From sequence record NC_101838.1: DNA of 64,000 bases. One strand, written 5' to 3'. The translations under genes and the position numbers were made by a program. The notes below the pieces were generated by a model. It did not search any database, had not been told where the DNA came from, and saw only the letters and a program-made list of their open reading frames with translations. Below, one piece after another: positions 4,954 through 62,915 of the stretch. Source of the DNA: a phage. The first letter of the stretch is position 1. The number at the start of each line of letters is the position of its first letter.

Positions 4954-5143
4954 GCTTAAATCTGCATGGAACATCGCTGTGGGGGACGAGATCCGTATCC
5001 CAGGTGGAAAGACCATTATGAAAATATCTCGTATCGAGTACGAAGGTGATCGTGTATTTCATATCTTTGCAGAAGATGGTCGAGAAATTTATATACAGGC
5101 AGGCTCTCACATCTATATTCGTAAGAAAGGGGAGGACAAATGA
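4946..5143 (+). CDS. hypothetical protein (65 aa)
   Basis: Internal ATG of track ORF 4880..5143, overlapping the upstream stop; aaggaagg SD-like motif. Confidence 0.45.
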   Translation: MFKLKSAWNIAVGDEIRIPGGKTIMKISRIEYEGDRVFHIFAEDGREIYIQAGSHIYIRKKGEDK

Positions 5144-5469
5144 CAGAGATCATCATTTCAACTGCAGGGTATGTATTCCTGACAATCATTGCGCTGGCTA
5201 TTCTGGTGGCGGTGTATGGATTTGTTATCCTTCCTATCCTTGAGACATTTAGTTTGTGTCGGTGTTGGAGAAAAGCTTACGGTCCACAACCATGGAAGGA
5301 CTGGCCCCACCTGGTGCGCTTAGCGTTCTCTTATGCTTACGATCACTCCAGTAGTGCATGCATAACCGGATACCACGCCCACAACTGGAGCTGGGAAGGG
5401 TTGAGGAAATGGAATGTTACAAAGACCATACCTCTGCGCATGTACAAACCTAAAAACAAAGACAACTGA
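5140..5469 (+). CDS. hypothetical membrane protein (109 aa)
   Basis: N-terminal hydrophobic helix (TAGYVFLTIIALAILVAVYGFVILPIL); aaaggggagg SD-like motif; start overlaps upstream stop. Confidence 0.5.
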   Translation: MTEIIISTAGYVFLTIIALAILVAVYGFVILPILETFSLCRCWRKAYGPQPWKDWPHLVRLAFSYAYDHSSSACITGYHAHNWSWEGLRKWNVTKTIPLRMYKPKNKDN

Positions 5470-5499
5470 TACTTGAAAATTCCTGGCATATCAAGTATA

Positions 5500-5960
5500 A
5501 GGGGGATTTCTAAAATGGATTTCCTCCTTTTGATATTTCACCGGGCTGGATATTTTAAAATTCTTAGAAAATCAGAAAATGGATCGAAAACTAAAATGGA
5601 TTTTTCAGAGTAGGCGCGACAAGCTGAATAACTCATCCTATCGTTTGCACCATATTCCAGGCCACCATTATAGATTTCCCACACATGCTAACCTCCCTCT
5701 ACTAGAACTTCCTCCACTTACCCTTGACCTTCTATGGTAACAATCTAACCGCTATCTTGAAGTTGCGGTGCAGCTTTCCAGGTACTCGATCTACTTTTCA
5801 TTTCAGGGCTTGGATTTTCTGAAAATTTTTCTCGATAAATTTCTCAGTACTCGATCTGTTTTTCGTTTTCTGAATCGGATTTTCTGGAAATCGTTCCGGC
5901 TCTCAACCTGAAATTTTTGGGGACGAAATCGATTTTTCGTTTTCAGAAATGGATTTTTAA
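5500..5960. repeat. iteron-like degenerate direct repeats (core GGATTTT) in ORF-free region
   Basis: At least 8 copies of (A)TGGATTTT(C)-like motifs and two copies of CAGTACTCGATCT about 65 bp apart. Confidence 0.6.
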
Positions 5961-6066
5961 AATTTCTATATGGGAATATTTTAGTGGATACTATTTTATA
6001 GTAAATTGTTACGGAGGGTAATTAGCGTGCTAATTAAATTTATTAAATGCGAGGAGTTCTCATTTA

Positions 6067-6285
6067 GAATCTTGAATGATAATCATTCTCGTTTGCAGAA
6101 TAACGGGCAGGCCCGGTGATTGTCTCCCGGCCCCTGTTGCCCCGGCTTGTTATTATAGTATCACACAGGACAAAGAAAGCAAGGATTTTTTGCATAAATT
6201 TTTAAATGATAATGATAACCGTTCTCATTTTATGCAGCGCTCATCCCTGGTGGTTGTCTCCCCCGTCACCGGTGCCTGCCGTCCT
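6067..6285. repeat. two copies of an approximately 75-bp direct repeat
   Basis: aatgataat..tctc.ttt..gcag...ggtgattgtctccc seen at about 6067-6140 and again at about 6208-6285. Confidence 0.5.
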
Positions 6286-6482
6286 TTCGATAGGTATATT
6301 GTGCCACCTGTCGGGGCCGCTGTCAACACTTTTCAAAAAATTTTTCTAACCTGATGCGCTAACCGCTGCAACCTGGCGGGGCCAGCCTGGCAGGACCTAA
6401 CTGACCAGGTGGGAGAGGGTGAAATCTTGCAAACCTGGTAGGCCCATGCTGTAGGGTAAACAATTGAAGAGGAGGTACAAAA

Positions 6483-6620
6483 ATGAAAGGTAATGCTACT
6501 CACCTGGGAAATGTAGTGATTAATGATACAGAAGCGCGGGAACATAAAGAAGAGTACGAAAAAATGGTGGTTAACCTGGCGGGGGGGCGGCAGGTGGATT
6601 CTATCATAAAAATAATTTAA
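6483..6620 (+). CDS. small hypothetical protein (45 aa)
   Basis: Short ORF with strong SD (gaagaggagg) 7 nt upstream of ATG; below the track length cutoff. Confidence 0.3.
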   Translation: MKGNATHLGNVVINDTEAREHKEEYEKMVVNLAGGRQVDSIIKII

Positions 6621-6628
6621 AATAATCG

Positions 6629-6656
6629 TTGACAACAAGGTTAATCATGGTATTAT
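6629..6656 (+). promoter_or_regulatory. sigma70-like promoter (TTGACA-16-TATTAT)
   Basis: Consensus-like hexamers upstream of the ORF at 6707. Confidence 0.5.
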
Positions 6657-6706
6657 TACCCTACAAGGTGAACAACACCGCACTAACCAGTAAAGAGGAT
6701 AAATTT

Positions 6707-17466: not shown

Positions 17467-17527
17467 TATTGTGTCAAGTATTCCGATTGTGTCACCATTG
17501 TGTCTAAAGTGTCATATTGTGTCAGAC
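17467..17527. repeat. five tandem TTGTGTC(A) iterons
   Basis: tattgtgtcaag, gattgtgtcacc, cattgtgtctaa, agtgtcat, tattgtgtcagac at 12-17 bp spacing. Confidence 0.55.
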
Positions 17528-18099
17528 AAGTTTTTCTCCTCTTTGTCAAGTGCTGCATGAAAAATTTACAAACTGGTATGGTAGCATTTTTGCGGACCTG
17601 TTTACATTCAGGAGTGTATGTATAATCCTTGTTGTGTGGGCGTTTATACGTCTGGACGGTCAGAAGTCTGCAGGTTAATATCTAATCTATTGGCTGCTAA
17701 CTATATCCCACACAAATGATAAGAAATATAATTGTTATATGCGTAAACTGTAACTCATGTTATCAATCCCTGTATGGATCGCCAGTGGTGCGCATAATGG
17801 GTATTATGTTAAATTGCCCGTAATGATAAAGGTTCTCACAATGATAGGTATTCTCATTCACCCTCACAAAATAGATTGCAAATGTTGTGCCACTGTGTGA
17901 ACGGCCTCACCTATTAATTTGCCTCACTGCCTCGATATTTGAGAATTATTATAAGAATGAGAAGTATTCCCATTCCGTCCGCCTGGCAGCACTCCTGTAG
18001 GTCCTGCAAGGACTCTAGCTTTCAGCTAGACCCTTCGGGCCTCCCTGTAGGTCAGGTCAAAATCGGGGTAGAATTGGGCCTATTCAGATATTTCTGGCT

Positions 18100-18335
18100 G
18101 ACTCTTCAGGTCTGTGTGGGAAAAGCCAACCTCTCCGGCGGGGCAGGGGGATATCTGCGGGAAAATTGCAGGTCAATTAAAAAATTTACGTGGTATATGA
18201 AGCGCTCTTCAGGTAAGGCATGTATTATGGGATGAAACCCTCTTCAGGCAATGATATTTGTGGGTGTGATATTTGCTGGAAAGCCAGATATGACGGGACT
18301 CCCGGCGGGGCAGGGGTGGTACAGACAGGGAAAAT
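18100..18335. repeat. composite direct repeats (CTCTTCAGG ... CCGGCGGGGCAGGGG ... GGGAAAAT)
   Basis: Unit at 18100-18166 repeated at 18238-18335; extra CTCTTCAGG copies at about 18203 and 18654. Confidence 0.55.
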
Positions 18336-19014
18336 ATGAAGGATGTGGTTGGGTAGATTGATCAGACAGGTAGAGTATGGAATATGTTACAAGTATGTTA
18401 AATATGGAGGTTGAATATCTGTAGGATTTGTGTGTAAAATCAAAGACTTAAGTGGTGTTGTGGTATTTTCTATAAATAATTCAAGTTTAATAGGCAATAT
18501 TTGTCTCTATCCGCTTTGTGTGGTAAACAGATTCAGATTAGATTGGTTTACAAGTGTATACATAATATACAAATTAAAGATACAAGAAACCCCCCCTCCC
18601 CCCTTCGGCTACCATTCACCTTTTCCTCTGACTGGTACTTAAACACTTATTCAGACTCTTCAGGTTATCACCCATATATCATATGGCAGTGACTGGTGTC
18701 CTCCGGCCCCTCTTTCGTCACCCGTCCGCTTCGCCATGCTAATGCCATAGCTAATGGTTCGGTTGTTCACCCTGTTCACTCAGGTGTATCTCTATACCCC
18801 TTCAAACCGAAGAGAACAGAAAACCCGAATTACTCGGTAAAAGAAAAGAGAAGAACTTAATTTTATCAGGATAGGCAAGAATGTCAAGGTATGACTGCTC
18901 ACTAAACAAGCAAACAGTCATGTGTGGGAGGTAAGTGATTGTGGTGGTAGGAAATTTAGTTGAAAGATGTGTTATAGGTGCTTCCAGCACTTTAGCCGGG
19001 CAGCTAATTGTGTG

Positions 19015-19230
19015 TCAGTCCAGCGGTTCATCCTCTACTTCACTGAAATCAATGTTCATGGTCTCTTCCCAACCATCGATCTCAGCACAAGAGTGGAGTT
19101 CTTTAGGGTTTACTCCCAAAGCCTCAGCAACAGAGTCTATATTTAACACCTCTGGCAGGTATGATTCATCGAATTCAAGGTAAATCAGGCCACGAGTGTT
19201 GTCAGCTCCACCAAATATCTCTATCTTCAT
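19015..19230 (-). CDS. hypothetical acidic protein (71 aa)
   Basis: Last ORF of the minus-strand block; acidic. Confidence 0.5.
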   Translation of the reverse strand: MKIEIFGGADNTRGLIYLEFDESYLPEVLNIDSVAEALGVNPKELHSCAEIDGWEETMNIDFSEVEDEPLD

Positions 19231-19351
19231 AAAATCTCCTCTGGGAATGAAAGTGTGAACAGGGTTTTATACGTTCTAATGCACAGGAATTATACACGTT
19301 TGCCTCTTCAGGCCATGCTTTAGCATGAGGAACCTGTGTGGGCTCGGTGCT

Positions 19352-62102: not shown

Positions 62103-62177
62103 GCCCTGTTAGCTTAGTGGATAAAGCAGCGGCCTTCTAAGCCGTTGACACTGGTTCGAGTCCAGTACGGGGTGCCA
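62103..62177 (+). tRNA. tRNA-Arg (anticodon UCU)
   Basis: Manual cloverleaf fold: 7-bp acceptor, D-arm agtggata, anticodon loop cuUCUaa, T-loop ttcgagt, encoded CCA. Confidence 0.85.
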
Positions 62178-62181
62178 AATT

Positions 62182-62268
62182 GGGGAGTTATCCCGTAGAG
62201 GTAGCGGTGTAGACTGTAAATCTATTGTCATTGCGACTCGGGTGGTTCGACTCCACCACTCCCCACCA
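62182..62268 (+). tRNA. tRNA-Tyr (anticodon GUA)
   Basis: Perfect 7-bp acceptor (ggggagt/actcccc), anticodon loop cuGUAaa, long variable arm, T-loop ttcgact, encoded CCA. Confidence 0.8.
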
Positions 62269-62382
62269 AATTTATATTTTTAGATGCATAAATAATACAG
62301 ATAATGGCATTGATATTTATCGTCGTTTATACTAGTCACTAACTGCTCGAAAATCAGTGTCATTATCAGTATTATTTATAAA

Positions 62383-62473
62383 GGAGGGTAGGGAGCAATG
62401 GTGCTCAAGCGGTCTTGAAAACCGTCCCGTTGAGGATGACTCGATGATGGTTCGATTCCATTACTCTCCGCCA
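62383..62473 (+). tRNA. tRNA-Ser (anticodon UGA)
   Basis: Acceptor ggagggt/actctcc, anticodon loop cuUGAaa, long variable arm, T-loop ttcgatt, encoded CCA. Confidence 0.8.
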
Positions 62474-62571
62474 CATTGTTGACCTTGTAATTAAGCGAAA
62501 GTCGGAAGCAGAACCGGATTATCAAATGTTACAGTCGTCATCGCCGACTAGCAACATGGTCAACATACTGA

Positions 62572-62670
62572 GCTAGGTAAGCCCTTTGGCAAGGGCGAGG
62601 ATTTTTAATCCTGAAAATAGACGAGGTAGTCGTTGAATACATAGGTGGTTCGATTCCATCACCTAGCACC
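62572..62670 (+). ncRNA. aberrant tRNA-like element (about 97 nt) lacking a canonical anticodon arm
   Basis: Good acceptor (gctaggt/acctagc), D-arm and T-arm (ggtgg-ttcgatt-ccatc), but the region between holds two 5-bp/5-nt-loop hairpins instead of a 7-nt anticodon loop. Confidence 0.35.
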
Positions 62671-62675
62671 TTTTT

Positions 62676-62751
62676 GCTGATGTAGCACAATCGGTAGTGC
62701 AATTGATTTGTAATCAATAGGTTGTAGGTTCAAGTCCTGCCATCAGCACCA
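62676..62751 (+). tRNA. tRNA-Thr (anticodon UGU)
   Basis: Acceptor gctgatg/catcagc, anticodon stem attga/tcaat with loop uuUGUaa, encoded CCA. Confidence 0.8.
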
Positions 62752-62752
62752 A

Positions 62753-62827
62753 GGCCCTGTAGCTGGAAGGTTCAAGCAAGCGACTCATAATCGCCAGACG
62801 GTGGTTCAATTCCACCCAGGGCCACCA
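62753..62827 (+). tRNA. tRNA with CAU anticodon (Met or lysidine-Ile)
   Basis: Acceptor ggccctg/cagggcc, anticodon loop cuCAUaa, T-loop ttcaatt, encoded CCA. Confidence 0.75.
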
Positions 62828-62838
62828 AATAGTAAATA

Positions 62839-62915
62839 CTCCGCGTAGCTCAGCTTGGTAGAGCGCCTGATTTGGGATCAGGAGGTCGAGTGTTCGAATC
62901 ACTCCGTGGAGACCA
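62839..62915 (+). tRNA. tRNA-Pro (anticodon UGG)
   Basis: Acceptor ctccgcg/cgtggag, canonical D-arm agctcagcttggtagagc, anticodon loop uuUGGga, T-loop ttcgaat, encoded CCA. Confidence 0.85.

What the first reader, a model, noticed from the sequence alone, without database searches (positions are those of the whole stretch)
5470..6480. One-kilobase ORF-free region with iteron-like repeats between the first gene module and the small-ORF array
Degenerate GGATTTT-core repeats (at least 8), a duplicated CAGTACTCGATCT motif, two copies of an approximately 75-bp direct repeat and several G/C homopolymer runs occupy a region with no credible gene. Possible functions are a replication origin, a protein-titrating site array or a packaging-related element.
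Basis: seen in the sequence. Interest (0 to 1): 0.5.

Follow-up and report, generated by a model that had tools for sequence, protein, structure and literature searches.

The report
Phage control region with Fur operators
The gene-free kilobase is a real control region, conserved in rV5-like phages of at least eight genera: it combines repeats, an AT-rich stretch, promoters with no gene behind them and binding sites for the host iron sensor Fur, and it is most likely a replication origin, though this has not been tested by experiment.

Summary
Window 5470-6482 of this rV5-like coliphage (Vequintavirus) has no credible gene and is full of non-random repeats.

- **Fur operators.** Three near-consensus sites (6046-6064 degenerate, 6075-6093, 6205-6229). 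The proximal operator is 20/23 identical to the E. coli ryhB operator. In 15 lineages from 8+ genera it sits exactly 40 bp from an invariant GGTGNTTGTCTC motif, and further operators follow in 29-bp phase.
- **Leftward promoters.** Two tandem sigma-70 promoters fire against the flow of every neighbouring gene. They pass the Fur sites and run into the second most AT-rich 100 bp of the window and the genus-specific iteron-like repeats. No ORF lies downstream of them.
- **Conservation.** The core 5781-6340 is nearly invariant among nine Vequintaviruses. Its centre is the only DNA here still detectable by blastn in other genera.

Packaging is rejected. The 459-bp terminal repeat described for a close relative maps to 17,525-17,983, 11.5 kb away.

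Best reading (about 0.4): a transcription-activated replication origin of T7/T4 type, gated or organised by host Fur. Main rival (about 0.3): a Fur-controlled transcriptional switch with no role in replication.

No held paper reports Fur operators in virulent phages.

The parts
5470..6482 (.). Whole non-coding control region between the stop of gene 5140-5469 and ATG 6483
   Evidence: ORFs are inconsistent between records and frame-shifted between relatives. Both-strand tblastn hits are equal.
5468..5607 (+). AT-rich block (69% AT) with an 81-bp-spaced duplicated segment and three AAATGGAT(T/C) iteron-like cores (5513, 5577, 5594)
   Evidence: Families D4 and D7; k-mer enrichment. 5547-5607 is nearly invariant in nine Vequintaviruses.
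5608..5780 (+). Fast-evolving spacer, C-rich and G-poor on the + strand (C 31-38%, G 8-15%). As rightward RNA it looks like a Rho-utilisation (rut) site; as leftward RNA it is G-rich.
   Evidence: Composition. It is the least conserved part of the region. The function is inferred only.
5772..5975 (+). Three tandem 65-74-bp units. Each carries (G)TACTCGATCT or its degenerate form, a TTTTCGTTTTC tract, a GGATTTT core and an A/T tract such as GAAAATTTTTC.
   Evidence: Families D1-D3. Invariant within the genus. Other genera have units of similar plan but different sequence (TTCTCGATCG...GAAAAAATTTTT).
5949..6048 (.). AT-rich stretch (77% AT), a candidate DNA-unwinding element, containing the palindrome TAATTAGCGTGCTAATTA at 6019-6036
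   Evidence: Second most AT-rich 100-bp window of the 64 kb, 99.9th percentile. The palindrome is not kept intact in rV5.
6046..6064 (.). Fur operator O0, degenerate (AATGCGAGGAGTTCTCATT), exactly 29 bp upstream of O1
   Evidence: position -69 from the GGTG core. The same position holds good operators in Klebsiella, Serratia, Pectobacterium, Cronobacter and Phapecoctavirus phages.
6075..6093 (.). Fur operator O1 (AATGATAATCATTCTCGTT)
   Evidence: 15/19 to the Fur consensus GATAATGATAATCATTATC (consensus from PMC3788343). 20/23 identical to the E. coli ryhB operator. At -40 from the core in all lineages examined.
6072..6101 (+). Candidate rightward Fur-repressed promoter P_R: TTGAAT-18-CAGAAT, with O1 filling the spacer
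   Evidence: score 9.0. Intact in 10 of 16 lineages. The essential A of the -10 is lost in 6 of them (CTGAAT, CGGAAT, CTAAAT). Inconclusive.
6102..6148 (.). GC box 1 with the invariant core GGTGATTGTCTC at 6115-6126
   Evidence: No consensus RNA fold on either strand.
6152..6206 (-). Leftward sigma-70 promoter P_L1: -35 TTGCTT (6182-6177), -10 TACTAT/TATAAT (6160-6152), and an A/T-rich UP-like tract at 6183-6206. The transcription start is predicted near 6145.
   Evidence: the best-scoring promoter at the same aligned position in all 13 lineages tested. The hexamers are kept while the spacers are unrelated in sequence.
6205..6229 (.). Fur operator O2 (GATAATGATAACCGTTCTC at 6208-6226; two overlapping registers)
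   Evidence: 16/19 to the consensus here and 17/19 in rV5. At -38 from core 2.
6236..6295 (.). GC box 2 with core GGTGGTTGTCTC at 6249-6260, a diverged duplicate of GC box 1
   Evidence: Families D9 and D10 (134-136-bp spacing).
6298..6326 (-). Leftward sigma-70 promoter P_L2: TTGACA-17-CACAAT with TG extension
   Evidence: 10/12 match. It is one of only two minus-strand promoters of that strength in 17.5 kb, against 17 on the + strand. Invariant within the genus.
6327..6348 (.). A6T5 tract (CACTTTTCAAAAAATTTTTCTA) upstream of P_L2
   Evidence: Its length is polymorphic between relatives.
6362..6455 (+). G-rich, indel-prone AACCTGG(C/T)(G/A)GG repeats leading to the ribosome-binding site and ATG 6483
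   Evidence: Family D5. Deletions of 14-48 bp in five of nine relatives, so it is probably dispensable.

Best explanation
The region is a cis-acting control region, most likely a replication origin activated or primed by host RNA polymerase.

**Shown from sequence**
- Two tandem sigma-70 promoters (P_L2 and P_L1) point leftward, against every neighbouring gene and away from the nearby genome end.
- Their transcripts would cross a GC box containing GGTGNTTGTCTC, then a phased array of host Fur operators, then a 77%-AT stretch, then same-strand iteron-like repeats.
- No gene lies downstream of these promoters.

**Inferred**
- The leftward transcripts open the AT-rich stretch or prime DNA synthesis there, as at the T7 primary origin and T4 oriF/oriG.
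- The genus-specific repeats bind a phage protein.
- Fur-Fe2+ bound at +45 to +100 of the transcripts blocks, positions or organises this complex, which would tie initiation to the iron status of the host.
For: **Origin-like anatomy**
1. Iteron-like cores all lie on one strand and are strongly enriched locally.
2. Next to them lies the second most AT-rich 100 bp of the 64 kb.
3. P_L1 is the top-scoring promoter at the same position in all 13 lineages from 8+ genera, with the hexamers kept and the spacers unrelated. P_L2 is a 10/12 match. Neither has an ORF downstream.

**Conservation**
4. 5781-6340 is nearly invariant among nine Vequintaviruses whose flanking genes differ by 10-14%.
5. Window 6034-6191 is the only part still found by blastn in Phapecoctavirus, Mydovirus, Seunavirus, Certrevirus, Henunavirus and in Serratia and Pantoea phages. 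The neighbouring proteins give no cross-genus hit.

**Replication and genome type**
6. rV5 encodes a Pol A-type polymerase and a T7 gp4-like primase-helicase (PMC3606486).
7. Relatives have short direct terminal repeats and T7-type packaging (PMC7471380 and PMC9862379).
8. The region lies 8.4-9.1% of the genome from the end and its promoters point inward. From memory, this resembles T7's tandem promoters plus AT-rich origin at about 15%.

**Fur operators in unrelated phages**
9. In unrelated uncultured phages the same Fur operator sits inside DnaA-box clusters and iterons in gaps of 500-1350 bp, beside primase-helicase genes.

**Identity of the Fur sites**
Against: - There is no experimental mapping of an origin.
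- No initiator gene is recognisable next to the region.
- There are no DnaA boxes.
- GC skew follows transcription direction and is uninformative (the rV5 paper says the same).
- A second, larger ORF-poor region (16.6-19.3 kb) has its own iteron-like repeats (5x ATTGTGTCA) and Fur-like boxes, and could be the origin instead or as well. That region is conserved only within Vequintavirus and contains the terminal repeat.
- As far as I know, Fur has no role at any replication origin.
- Fur is a transcription factor, so a purely transcriptional role is the simpler assumption.
Confidence: 0.4

Rival explanations
1. The region is a Fur-controlled transcriptional switch or insulator with no role in replication. 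Fur-Fe2+ bound at O1 represses the rightward promoter P_R (TTGAAT-18-CAGAAT). P_R faces P_L1, with the two start sites about 40 bp apart. Iron status would decide which of the two convergent promoters wins, and so set the level of the downstream early small genes or of antisense transcription into the upstream module. The repeats, the C-rich spacer and the hairpin at 5913-5950 would serve to terminate incoming transcription.
For: - Repression of promoters is the established activity of Fur.
- O1 fills the spacer between the -35 and -10 of P_R, the classical geometry seen at ryhB.
- P_R is intact in 10 of 16 lineages.
- The distance from operator to GGTG core is fixed at 40 bp, as expected for a promoter plus its initial transcribed sequence.
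- The C-rich, G-poor 5608-5780 looks like a Rho-utilisation site for rightward RNA.
- Fur-like boxes also occur in and near the terminal repeats, where early promoters would be expected.
Against: - The -10 of P_R lacks the essential A at position 2 in 6 of 16 lineages, including the whole Klebsiella group.
- The second module in the window (O2) has no P_R-like -10 at all.
- The downstream small genes each have their own strong sigma-70 promoter, as do the upstream genes, so no obvious regulatory target exists.
- A switch alone does not explain the iterons, the AT-rich stretch or the near-total invariance of 560 bp.
Confidence: 0.3
2. The region is a genome-entry checkpoint like the injection stop signal (iss) of T5. 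The first 8-9% of the DNA would enter (terminal repeat plus the array of small, strongly promoted early genes), and transfer would pause at this repeat-rich untranslated region through a host DNA-binding protein: Fur here, DnaA in Davison's model for T5.
For: - The region begins 11.5 kb (8.4%) from the predicted right end. In Klebsiella phage KPP-1 the equivalent distance is about 8.3-8.8 kb, or 6%.
- T5 iss lies at 7.9% in an untranslated region full of repeats, palindromes and 8 host DnaA boxes (bioRxiv 10.1101/866236).
- About 25 small ORFs with strong sigma-70 promoters lie between the region and the end.
Against: - Two-step injection is not known for rV5-like phages.
- Which end enters first is unknown.
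- The terminal repeat is 459 bp, not about 10 kb as in T5.
- Strong sigma-70 promoters also lie on the far side of the region, so it does not bound the early class.
- The T5 DnaA model is itself a hypothesis.
Confidence: 0.1
3. The promoters express small non-coding RNAs: leftward RNAs from P_L1 and P_L2 containing GGAGACAAUCACC, and/or a Fur-repressed rightward RNA from P_R. These would act by base-pairing on host or phage mRNAs, in the manner of RyhB.
For: - The promoters are conserved and have no ORF behind them.
- The 12-nt core is invariant at a fixed distance from the promoter elements.
- A closing stem is possible in many lineages, for example AAUAACGGGC/GCUUGUUAUU in the window.
- In other genera a second element downstream shows a small covarying stem: CCCC/GGGG, CCAA/UUGG and CCAU/AUGG.
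Against: - There is no Rfam match at permissive thresholds.
- RNAalifold finds no consensus fold on either strand (-3.9 and -1.5 kcal/mol), and single-sequence z-scores are insignificant in about half of the lineages.
- No intrinsic terminator is found on the minus strand.
- The GG/CC dimorphism at 6109-6110 is not compensated.
- The similarity to ryhB is confined to the Fur box.
Confidence: 0.12
4. The region is a packaging signal (pac or terminase-binding site).
For: The repeats are phased and carry A-tracts and a few GATC sites (5582, 5788, 5853). Some pac sites look similar.
Against: - Phage Gotham (92% identical here) has defined ends with a 459-bp terminal repeat (PMC7471380). That repeat maps to window 17,525-17,983 at 95% identity.
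- Mydovirus KPP-1 likewise has a 514-bp terminal repeat about 8.3 kb from its copy of this region.
Confidence: 0.02
5. The region is ordinary protein-coding sequence that gene callers partly missed.
For: GenBank records annotate 1-5 'hypothetical proteins' here.
Against: - The annotated ORFs differ from record to record.
- Homopolymer-length changes shift the frames.
- The few substitutions in the invariant core are non-synonymous in the candidate frames, and there is no synonymous drift.
- Both strands give equal tblastn hits.
- The ATG of a possible leaderless leftward ORF is ATA in about half of the genera.
Confidence: 0.02

Closest known systems
Primary origin of phage T7 (tandem promoters phi1.1A/1.1B followed by an AT-rich segment, about 15% from the left end); from memory, not checked here
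   Same: Both have two tandem promoters pointing away from the near genome end into an AT-rich stretch, in a linear genome with short direct terminal repeats and a Pol A plus gp4-like replisome.
   Different: The promoters here are host sigma-70 type, because the phage has no RNA polymerase of its own. Fur operators and a conserved GC box lie between the promoters and the AT-rich stretch. Iteron-like repeats follow. No function has been shown.
T4 oriF(uvsY)/oriG and the ColE1 origin (a promoter transcript forms a persistent RNA-DNA hybrid that primes synthesis); from memory
   Same: A promoter with no gene of its own is followed by an easily unwound segment. The leftward RNA would carry G-clusters over the GC boxes and would be G-rich over 5608-5780.
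   Different: Hybrid formation was not tested. The G-clusters are not conserved in other genera. No RNase H-type processing site is identifiable.
Iteron origins (lambda ori, plasmids such as P1, F and R6K); from memory
   Same: Several direct repeats lie on one strand next to an AT-rich stretch. The repeat sequence changes between genera while the architecture stays the same, as expected for co-evolution with a phage-encoded binding protein.
   Different: The units are 65-81 bp apart rather than about 20 bp. There is no initiator gene around or beside them, and there are no DnaA boxes.
Fur-repressed promoters of E. coli (ryhB, fhuA, fepD-entS, fepB-entC)
   Same: The operator sequence is the same: 15-17/19 to the consensus, and 20/23 to the ryhB operator. 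The phage-derived pattern recovers those host operators and nothing else in 35 kb. O1 overlaps the spacer of a candidate promoter.
   Different: The operators lie in a virulent phage and form arrays of 1-4 with a strict 29-bp phase and a fixed 40-bp distance to a phage motif. The overlapped promoter is not conserved in all lineages. No iron-related gene lies downstream.
Injection stop signal (iss) of phage T5 (Davison, bioRxiv 10.1101/866236)
   Same: Both are untranslated regions rich in repeats and palindromes, carry an ordered set of sites for a host DNA-binding protein, and lie about 8% from a genome end beyond a block of small early genes.
   Different: The sites are for Fur, not DnaA. 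The region is not inside a long terminal repeat. Two-step entry is unknown in this phage group.
Host nutrient-sensor sites in virulent cyanophages (NtcA and PhoB boxes); from memory
   Same: A lytic phage carries operators for a host regulator that reports nutrient status.
   Different: The cyanophage sites sit upstream of identifiable phage genes. Here they sit in a gene-free region and in the terminal repeat.

Membership tests
Fur operator (Fur box) | About 19-bp dyad-symmetric site matching GATAATGATAATCATTATC | tested here: met
   - O1 matches 15/19 and O2 16/19 (17/19 in rV5) (consensus from PMC3788343).
- Relatives carry the perfect 9-1-9 palindrome AATGAGAATCATTCTCATT.
- There are 6 pattern hits in 64 kb against 0.30 expected.
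Fur operator (Fur box) | Resemblance to experimentally established host operators, with specificity of the pattern | tested here: met
   - The phage-derived pattern hits the fhuA, ryhB, fepD-entS and fepB-entC operators and nothing else in 35 kb of E. coli K-12.
- O1 is 20/23 identical to the ryhB operator; none of 200 shuffles reached the observed alignment score.
Fur operator (Fur box) | Overlaps the -35/-10 of the promoter it represses | tested here: inconclusive
   O1 fills the spacer of TTGAAT-18-CAGAAT, but the -10 is defective in 6 of 16 lineages. Relative to P_L1 the operators lie at about +45 to +100.
Fur operator (Fur box) | Bound by Fur-Fe2+ in vitro or in vivo | not testable with these tools
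   Needs a gel shift, footprint or ChIP.
Replication origin (iteron type) | Several direct repeats in one orientation | tested here: met
   GGATTT occurs 6 times and AAATGGAT 4 times, all on the + strand. There are also three 65-74-bp units.
Replication origin (iteron type) | Adjacent AT-rich unwinding element | tested here: met
   5949-6048 is 77% AT, the second highest of all 100-bp windows in the 64 kb.
Replication origin (iteron type) | Initiator gene in cis, or DnaA boxes | tested here: not met
   The flanking proteins match only PHROG families of unknown function. No DnaA box within 1 mismatch was seen on reading the sequence; the closest is AGTGGATAC at 5993, which is not conserved.
Replication origin (transcription-activated: T7, T4, ColE1) | Promoter(s) directed into an AT-rich segment with no gene downstream | tested here: met
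   P_L2 and P_L1. There is no conserved ORF on the minus strand.
Replication origin (any type) | Replication starts there (copy-number peak, replication bubbles, autonomous amplification) | not testable with these tools
   No read-depth or experimental data are available. GC skew is confounded by transcription (PMC3606486).
pac / terminase recognition site | Lies at or next to the physical genome ends | tested here: not met
   The terminal repeat of Gotham maps to 17,525-17,983. The KPP-1 terminal repeat lies about 8.3 kb from its homologue of this region.
Structured non-coding RNA | Match to a described family, or a covariation-supported consensus fold | tested here: not met
   Rfam gave no hit at E<=1 in the window or in 7 related loci. 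RNAalifold gave -3.9 and -1.5 kcal/mol with no shared helix. The closing stem is not in a common register between genera.
T5-type injection stop signal | Untranslated repeat-rich region about 8% from the end that enters first, with ordered host-protein sites | tested here: inconclusive
   The distance (8.4-9.1%) and the repeat content fit. The sites are for Fur, not DnaA. The entering end and two-step transfer are unknown.
Protein-coding gene | ORF conserved in frame across relatives | tested here: not met
   and the inconsistent annotation.

The most novel reading that the evidence does not exclude
Host Fur-Fe2+ acts as a licensing or architectural factor that virulent Enterobacterales phages recruit at their replication origin and at their genome ends. 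Phased Fur operators, held at a fixed distance from a phage motif, would make DNA replication or genome entry depend on the iron status of the infected cell. Iron limits the iron-dependent ribonucleotide reductases that supply dNTPs. The same solution would have arisen repeatedly, because unrelated uncultured phages place an identical Fur operator among the DnaA boxes and iterons of their putative origins.
Probability: 0.2. Interest if true: 0.8.

Novelty: new variant of a known kind. Interest (0 to 1): 0.6.

Why it matters
**An unexplained conserved element.** rV5-like phages are widely used as broad-host-range therapeutic and biocontrol agents. Their origin of replication is unknown; the rV5 genome paper looked for it by skew analysis and failed. 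This region is the most deeply conserved non-coding DNA found in this window, and it stays recognisable across at least eight genera whose neighbouring genes are unrelated.

**Iron could affect infection.** If the Fur sites work, the outcome of infection would depend on iron availability. Iron is scarce in the gut, in urine and in blood, where these phages are meant to act.

**Easy to test.** Experiments with fur mutants, iron chelation and operator mutants are simple. The recurrence of the same operator next to DnaA boxes in unrelated phages suggests that Fur may be a general, previously overlooked host factor for phages.

**Practical consequence.** Databases currently annotate spurious 'hypothetical proteins', and in one record 'tRNA' genes, over these sites.

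Tried and rejected
1. **Rfam.** Permissive searches of the window region and of seven related loci found nothing.
2. **tRNA.** A Klebsiella phage record annotates tRNA-Met and tRNA-Ile exactly over the Fur box and GC box. ARAGORN and Rfam find no tRNA in the window's copy, and Rfam finds none in that locus, so the annotation looks spurious.
3. **Consensus RNA fold of the GC box, both strands.** No shared helix was found and z-scores were mixed. A closing stem exists in many lineages but in different registers. Left as inconclusive.
4. **Homology to RyhB.** A 12-nt identity (TTGTCTCGCGAT) between PVP-SE1 and the ryhB promoter/5' end looked promising. Local alignment with shuffles showed that the only significant similarity is the Fur box itself.
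5. **Small leftward ORFs.** The 43-aa ORF 6195-6064, and a possible leaderless 31-aa ORF in PVP-SE1, are rejected. The start codon is ATA in about half of the genera and no synonymous variation is seen.
6. **'attL/attR' in Salmonella phage R7.** The record starts 69 bp from the Fur box. The features are 80-bp repeats at the two record ends, probably an assembly overlap, and are not evidence of termini.
7. **ICP1.** This phage has a related replisome and a mapped origin 'near 60 kb' (PMC7145576). In the reference record, 52-68 kb has no large gap and no Fur box. Coordinates of the strain used in the paper may differ, so this is uninformative.
8. **Literature.** Searches for Fur boxes in virulent phages or in Vequintavirinae found only Fur boxes upstream of sitABCD in temperate lambdoid phages. 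Searches for transcriptomes or origins of rV5-like phages found nothing usable.
9. **Tandem Repeats Finder.** It misses the 65-74-bp units because they are only 70-74% alike.
10. **Identity of the unrelated Fur-box phages L014 and L015.** There is no close relative among isolated phages.
Full report
**Identity and context.** The window is part of a Vequintavirus (rV5-like) coliphage genome. Positions 5300-6700 are 99.8% identical to Escherichia phage CarlMeissner (Bas48), and 121 phage records match. All genes from 1 to about 16.5 kb lie on the + strand. The gene upstream of the finding ends at 5469 and the next plausible start is ATG 6483. The larger flanking proteins match only PHROG families of unknown function, apart from one phosphatase-like protein. 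The rV5 genome paper marks a 'non-coding' box, gives no analysis of it, and reports that skew analysis failed to find the origin because skew follows transcription (PMC3606486).

**Check of the observation.**
- GGATTTT occurs 5 times, all on the + strand, within 5598-6189. The whole window has 16 copies, so about 0.13 would be expected locally.
- GGATTT occurs 6 times and AAATGGAT 4 times in 5470-6045, against 0.16 and 0.01 expected.
- GTACTCGATCT is duplicated exactly at 5782 and 5847.
- The 'two copies of a 75-bp repeat' are three tandem units at 5772, 5837 and 5911, 70-74% alike and spaced 65 and 74 bp apart.
- G/C runs of 4-5 are present.

**The region is not coding.**
- Different records annotate different ORFs here.
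- A T-run polymorphism at 5600-5605 breaks rV5 'ORF199' in about half of the relatives.
- Indels of 14-48 bp occur in 6386-6450.
- Plus- and minus-strand translations of the core hit other genera equally well.

**Conservation.** I aligned nine Vequintaviruses whose flanking genes differ by 10-14%.
- 5547-5607 and 5781-6340 are almost invariant.
- 5608-5780 is the fastest-evolving stretch. It is C-rich (31-38%) and G-poor (8-15%) on the + strand.
- 6386-6450 is prone to deletion.

A sensitive blastn search finds 248 records. Outside the genus, only window 6034-6191 still aligns, at 72-88% identity. The matches are in Phapecoctavirus, Mydovirus (Klebsiella, Proteus), Seunavirus (PVP-SE1), Certrevirus (Pectobacterium, Cronobacter), Henunavirus (Erwinia), and Serratia, Pantoea and other phages. 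Each of these genomes has a gene-free gap of 600-1100 bp at the syntenic place. The neighbouring proteins of the window give no cross-genus hit in those loci. The non-coding core is therefore better conserved than the genes around it.

**Anatomy, left to right on the + strand** (coordinates verified).
1. 5468-5607: AT-rich block with an 81-bp-spaced duplication and three AAATGGAT cores.
2. 5608-5780: variable C-rich spacer.
3. 5772-5975: three repeat units. Each carries a GTACTCGATCT-type box, a T/C tract, a GGATTTT core and an A/T tract.
4. 5949-6048: 77% AT, the second most AT-rich 100 bp of the 64 kb. It includes the palindrome at 6019-6036.
5. 6046-6094: Fur operators O0 (degenerate) and O1.
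6. 6102-6148: GC box 1, with GGTGATTGTCTC at 6115-6126.
7. 6152-6206: leftward promoter P_L1 with an A/T-rich upstream tract.
8. 6205-6229: Fur operator O2.
9. 6236-6295: GC box 2, with GGTGGTTGTCTC at 6249-6260.
10. 6298-6326: leftward promoter P_L2.
11. 6327-6348: an A6T5 tract.
12. 6362-6455: dispensable G-rich repeats.

Items 8-10 are a diverged tandem duplicate of items 5-7, at 134-136-bp spacing (families D9 and D10).

**Fur operators.** O1 matches the Fur consensus GATAATGATAATCATTATC at 15/19. O2 matches at 16/19, and at 17/19 in rV5 (consensus cited from PMC3788343). Relatives carry the perfect palindrome AATGAGAATCATTCTCATT.

The derived pattern AATGAKAATNATTMTCATT, allowing up to 3 mismatches, gives 6 hits in the window against 0.30 expected. 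All six lie in two non-coding regions.

As a positive control I fetched E. coli K-12 loci. The same pattern hits the known Fur-regulated promoters of fhuA, ryhB, fepD-entS and fepB-entC and nothing else in 35 kb. Local alignment shows that O1 is 20/23 identical to the ryhB operator, and the Klebsiella phage copy 20/22; none of 200 shuffles reached either alignment score.

The geometry is rigid. In 15 lineages the proximal operator starts exactly 40 bp before the GGTG core. Further operators sit at -69 and -98, a 29-bp phase, and at about -136. Each lineage has one to four operators. In the window, O0 occupies the -69 position.

Fur binding itself is inferred, not shown. A phage-encoded protein with the same specificity cannot be excluded. 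It is made unlikely by the identity with host operators and by the same 19-mer occurring in unrelated phages.

**Promoters.** A weight-matrix scan of 13 lineages puts the best sigma-70 promoter of each on the minus strand at the same aligned position. The hexamers are conserved: TTGCAA, TTGATC, TTGACG, TTGACC or TTGCTT for the -35, and TATATT, TATTAT, CATAAT, GATAAT or TACTAT for the -10. The spacers are unrelated in sequence. This pattern is expected of a working promoter (P_L1).

P_L2 is TTGACA-17-CACAAT with a TG extension. Among promoters matching at least 10/12 in the first 17.5 kb, 17 are on the + strand and only 2 on the minus strand; P_L2 is one of the two.

In other genera two TTGTAAAGA repeats 11 bp apart lie just upstream of the -35 of P_L1. 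The window has an A/T tract there instead.

A rightward promoter P_R (TTGAAT-18-CAGAAT, 6072-6101) has O1 in its spacer. This is the classical Fur-repression geometry. Its -10 lacks the essential A in 6 of 16 lineages, and it is absent from the O2 module. If active, its start (about 6107) would face that of P_L1 (about 6145) across roughly 40 bp.

No intrinsic terminator is predicted on the minus strand. One weak terminator-like hairpin lies on the + strand at 5913-5950.

**RNA structure.** Rfam has no match. RNAalifold finds no shared helix in the GC box on either strand, and z-scores are significant only in the Certrevirus group. A closing stem can be drawn in many lineages, but in different registers. 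The recurrent GG/CC dimorphism at 6109-6110 is not compensated on the other side. Conservation is therefore at the level of primary sequence. This points to protein or polymerase recognition rather than a folded RNA.

**Genome ends.** Phage Gotham, 92% identical over this region, has defined ends with 459-bp terminal repeats (PMC7471380; features). Its repeat aligns to window 17,525-17,983 at 95% identity. The finding therefore lies 11.5-12.5 kb, or 8.4-9.1% of about 137 kb, from the predicted right end. P_L1 and P_L2 point away from that end.

Klebsiella phage KPP-1 has a 514-bp terminal repeat and T7-type packaging (PMC9862379). Its copy of the Fur/GC module lies about 8.3 kb from that repeat. 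In both phages, additional Fur-like boxes lie in or beside the terminal repeat. This excludes a packaging role for 5470-6480.

**Other phages.** A scan of IMG/VR for TTGAATGAKAATCATTCTC returned 35 loci. About half are unrelated to this family. In those, the operator sits in non-coding gaps of about 500-1350 bp. The contexts are:
- six DnaA boxes and tandem 10-bp repeats (L014);
- TTATCCACA boxes (the L015 group);
- other iterons (L019, L034);
- arrays of 4-7 Fur boxes (L018, L025, L037).

L014 and L015 encode Toprim plus DnaB or AAA_25 primase-helicases within 0.4-2 kb of the site. This is an association of Fur operators with origin-like DNA in independent lineages.

**Mechanism.**

*Shown from sequence:* an insulated, gene-free island. 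Two conserved host-type promoters fire leftward through a conserved GC motif and a phased Fur-operator array into a very AT-rich stretch and same-strand repeats.

*Inferred, best reading (about 0.4):* a transcription-activated or transcription-primed replication origin. From memory, it is comparable in layout to the T7 primary origin (tandem promoters plus an AT-rich segment near one end of a terminally repeated linear genome) and to T4 oriF/oriG and ColE1. rV5 has a Pol A plus gp4-like replisome. The genus-specific repeats would bind a phage protein. Fur would block, position or organise the complex.

*Main rival (about 0.3):* a purely transcriptional Fur switch between convergent promoters.

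*Minor rivals:*
- a T5-iss-like entry checkpoint, about 0.1 (Davison, bioRxiv 10.1101/866236);
- small RNAs, about 0.12;
- packaging and coding, each about 0.02 or less.

*Against the origin reading:*
- there are no experimental data;
- there is no initiator gene and no DnaA box;
- Fur has no known role in replication;
- a second ORF-poor region at 16.6-19.3 kb has its own repeats. That region is genus-specific and contains the terminal repeat.

**Novelty.** Phage origins, iterons and host-factor sites are known kinds of element. Fur boxes are known upstream of cargo genes in temperate phages (PMC6969025). No paper in the held library links Fur with virulent phages or with Vequintavirinae. That library is incomplete, so this is absence of evidence only. 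I rate the finding a new variant of a known kind, and of moderate to high interest because simple experiments can test it.

Noticed in passing
window 16,600-19,300: A second, larger ORF-poor region lies where + strand and - strand transcription converge. It contains the homologue of the 459-bp direct terminal repeat of phage Gotham (17,525-17,983), so the physical genome ends probably lie inside this window. It is conserved only within Vequintavirus. It is probably the 'non-coding' box of the rV5 paper.
   Followed up: partly
window 17,715-17,974: At least three more Fur-box-like palindromes lie inside the predicted terminal repeat: 17,715; 17,840 (AATGATAGGTATTCTCATT); and 17,956 (AATGAGAAGTATTCCCATT). 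The last ends about 10 bp from the repeat boundary. Klebsiella phage KPP-1 also has Fur-like boxes in and just beside its 514-bp terminal repeat (L060 4714-5460).
   Followed up: partly
window 17,468-17,525: Five ATTGTGTCA-type repeats spaced 10-13 bp apart end exactly at the predicted terminal-repeat boundary (17,525). They are a candidate terminase or end-recognition site, or another set of iterons. Nearby are a 20-bp exact repeat, ATGCAAACGAATGGCATGGC (17,171 and 17,386), and an 18-bp perfect inverted repeat (17,204 / 17,338).
   Followed up: no
L003-L010, L016, L020, L026, L036, L041, L042, L046 (e.g. L005 2685-2770): In most other genera the place of the window's second module is taken by a different, highly conserved element of about 85 nt: CTACCGGCGATCCACCTT, a variable hairpin, then GTTAGCCCCGCC...GTGGGGTGGCG. 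One small stem covaries (CCCC/GGGG, CCAA/TTGG, CCAT/ATGG). A second leftward promoter follows. The element is absent from the window and has no Rfam match.
   Followed up: partly
L014 (motif 1261-1279), L015 (753-771), L018, L019, L025, L034, L037: Unrelated uncultured phages carry the identical Fur operator inside clusters of DnaA boxes, other iterons, or arrays of 4-7 Fur boxes (26-bp period in L025). These lie in long non-coding gaps, close to primase-helicase genes in L014 and L015.
   Followed up: partly
window 6483-6620: The first 'small ORF' after the region differs among relatives by a 34-nt indel and by frame-shifting homopolymer changes (the G-run at 6577-6583). It may not be a real gene.
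   Followed up: no
window 6109-6110 and the same column in other genera: There is a GG/CC dimorphism (GGCAGG versus GGCACC) just before the GGTG core. It recurs in Vequintavirus, Certrevirus and Mydovirus lineages without any compensating change elsewhere. This suggests two interchangeable alleles of a binding site, or recombination between phages.
   Followed up: no
window 62,572-62,670: Within the cluster of seven tRNAs (62,103-62,915), ARAGORN reports a 99-nt tRNA-like gene of undetermined identity with a four-base anticodon (atcc).
   Followed up: no
L005 2511-2664 (OY978796.1) and L004/L052 (PQ002170.1): Two public annotations over this region look wrong. In the Klebsiella phage record, 'tRNA-Met' and 'tRNA-Ile' cover the Fur box and GC box. 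In the Salmonella phage record, 'attL/attR' are 80-bp repeats at the two record ends, probably an assembly overlap, and the phage is filed under Demerecviridae although this region closely matches PVP-SE1.
   Followed up: partly
window 15,219-15,230 (minus strand): A third exact copy of GGTGATTGTCTC lies in the opposite orientation, just upstream of the ORF at 15,265 and inside the small-ORF array. I did not examine whether it is conserved.
   Followed up: no
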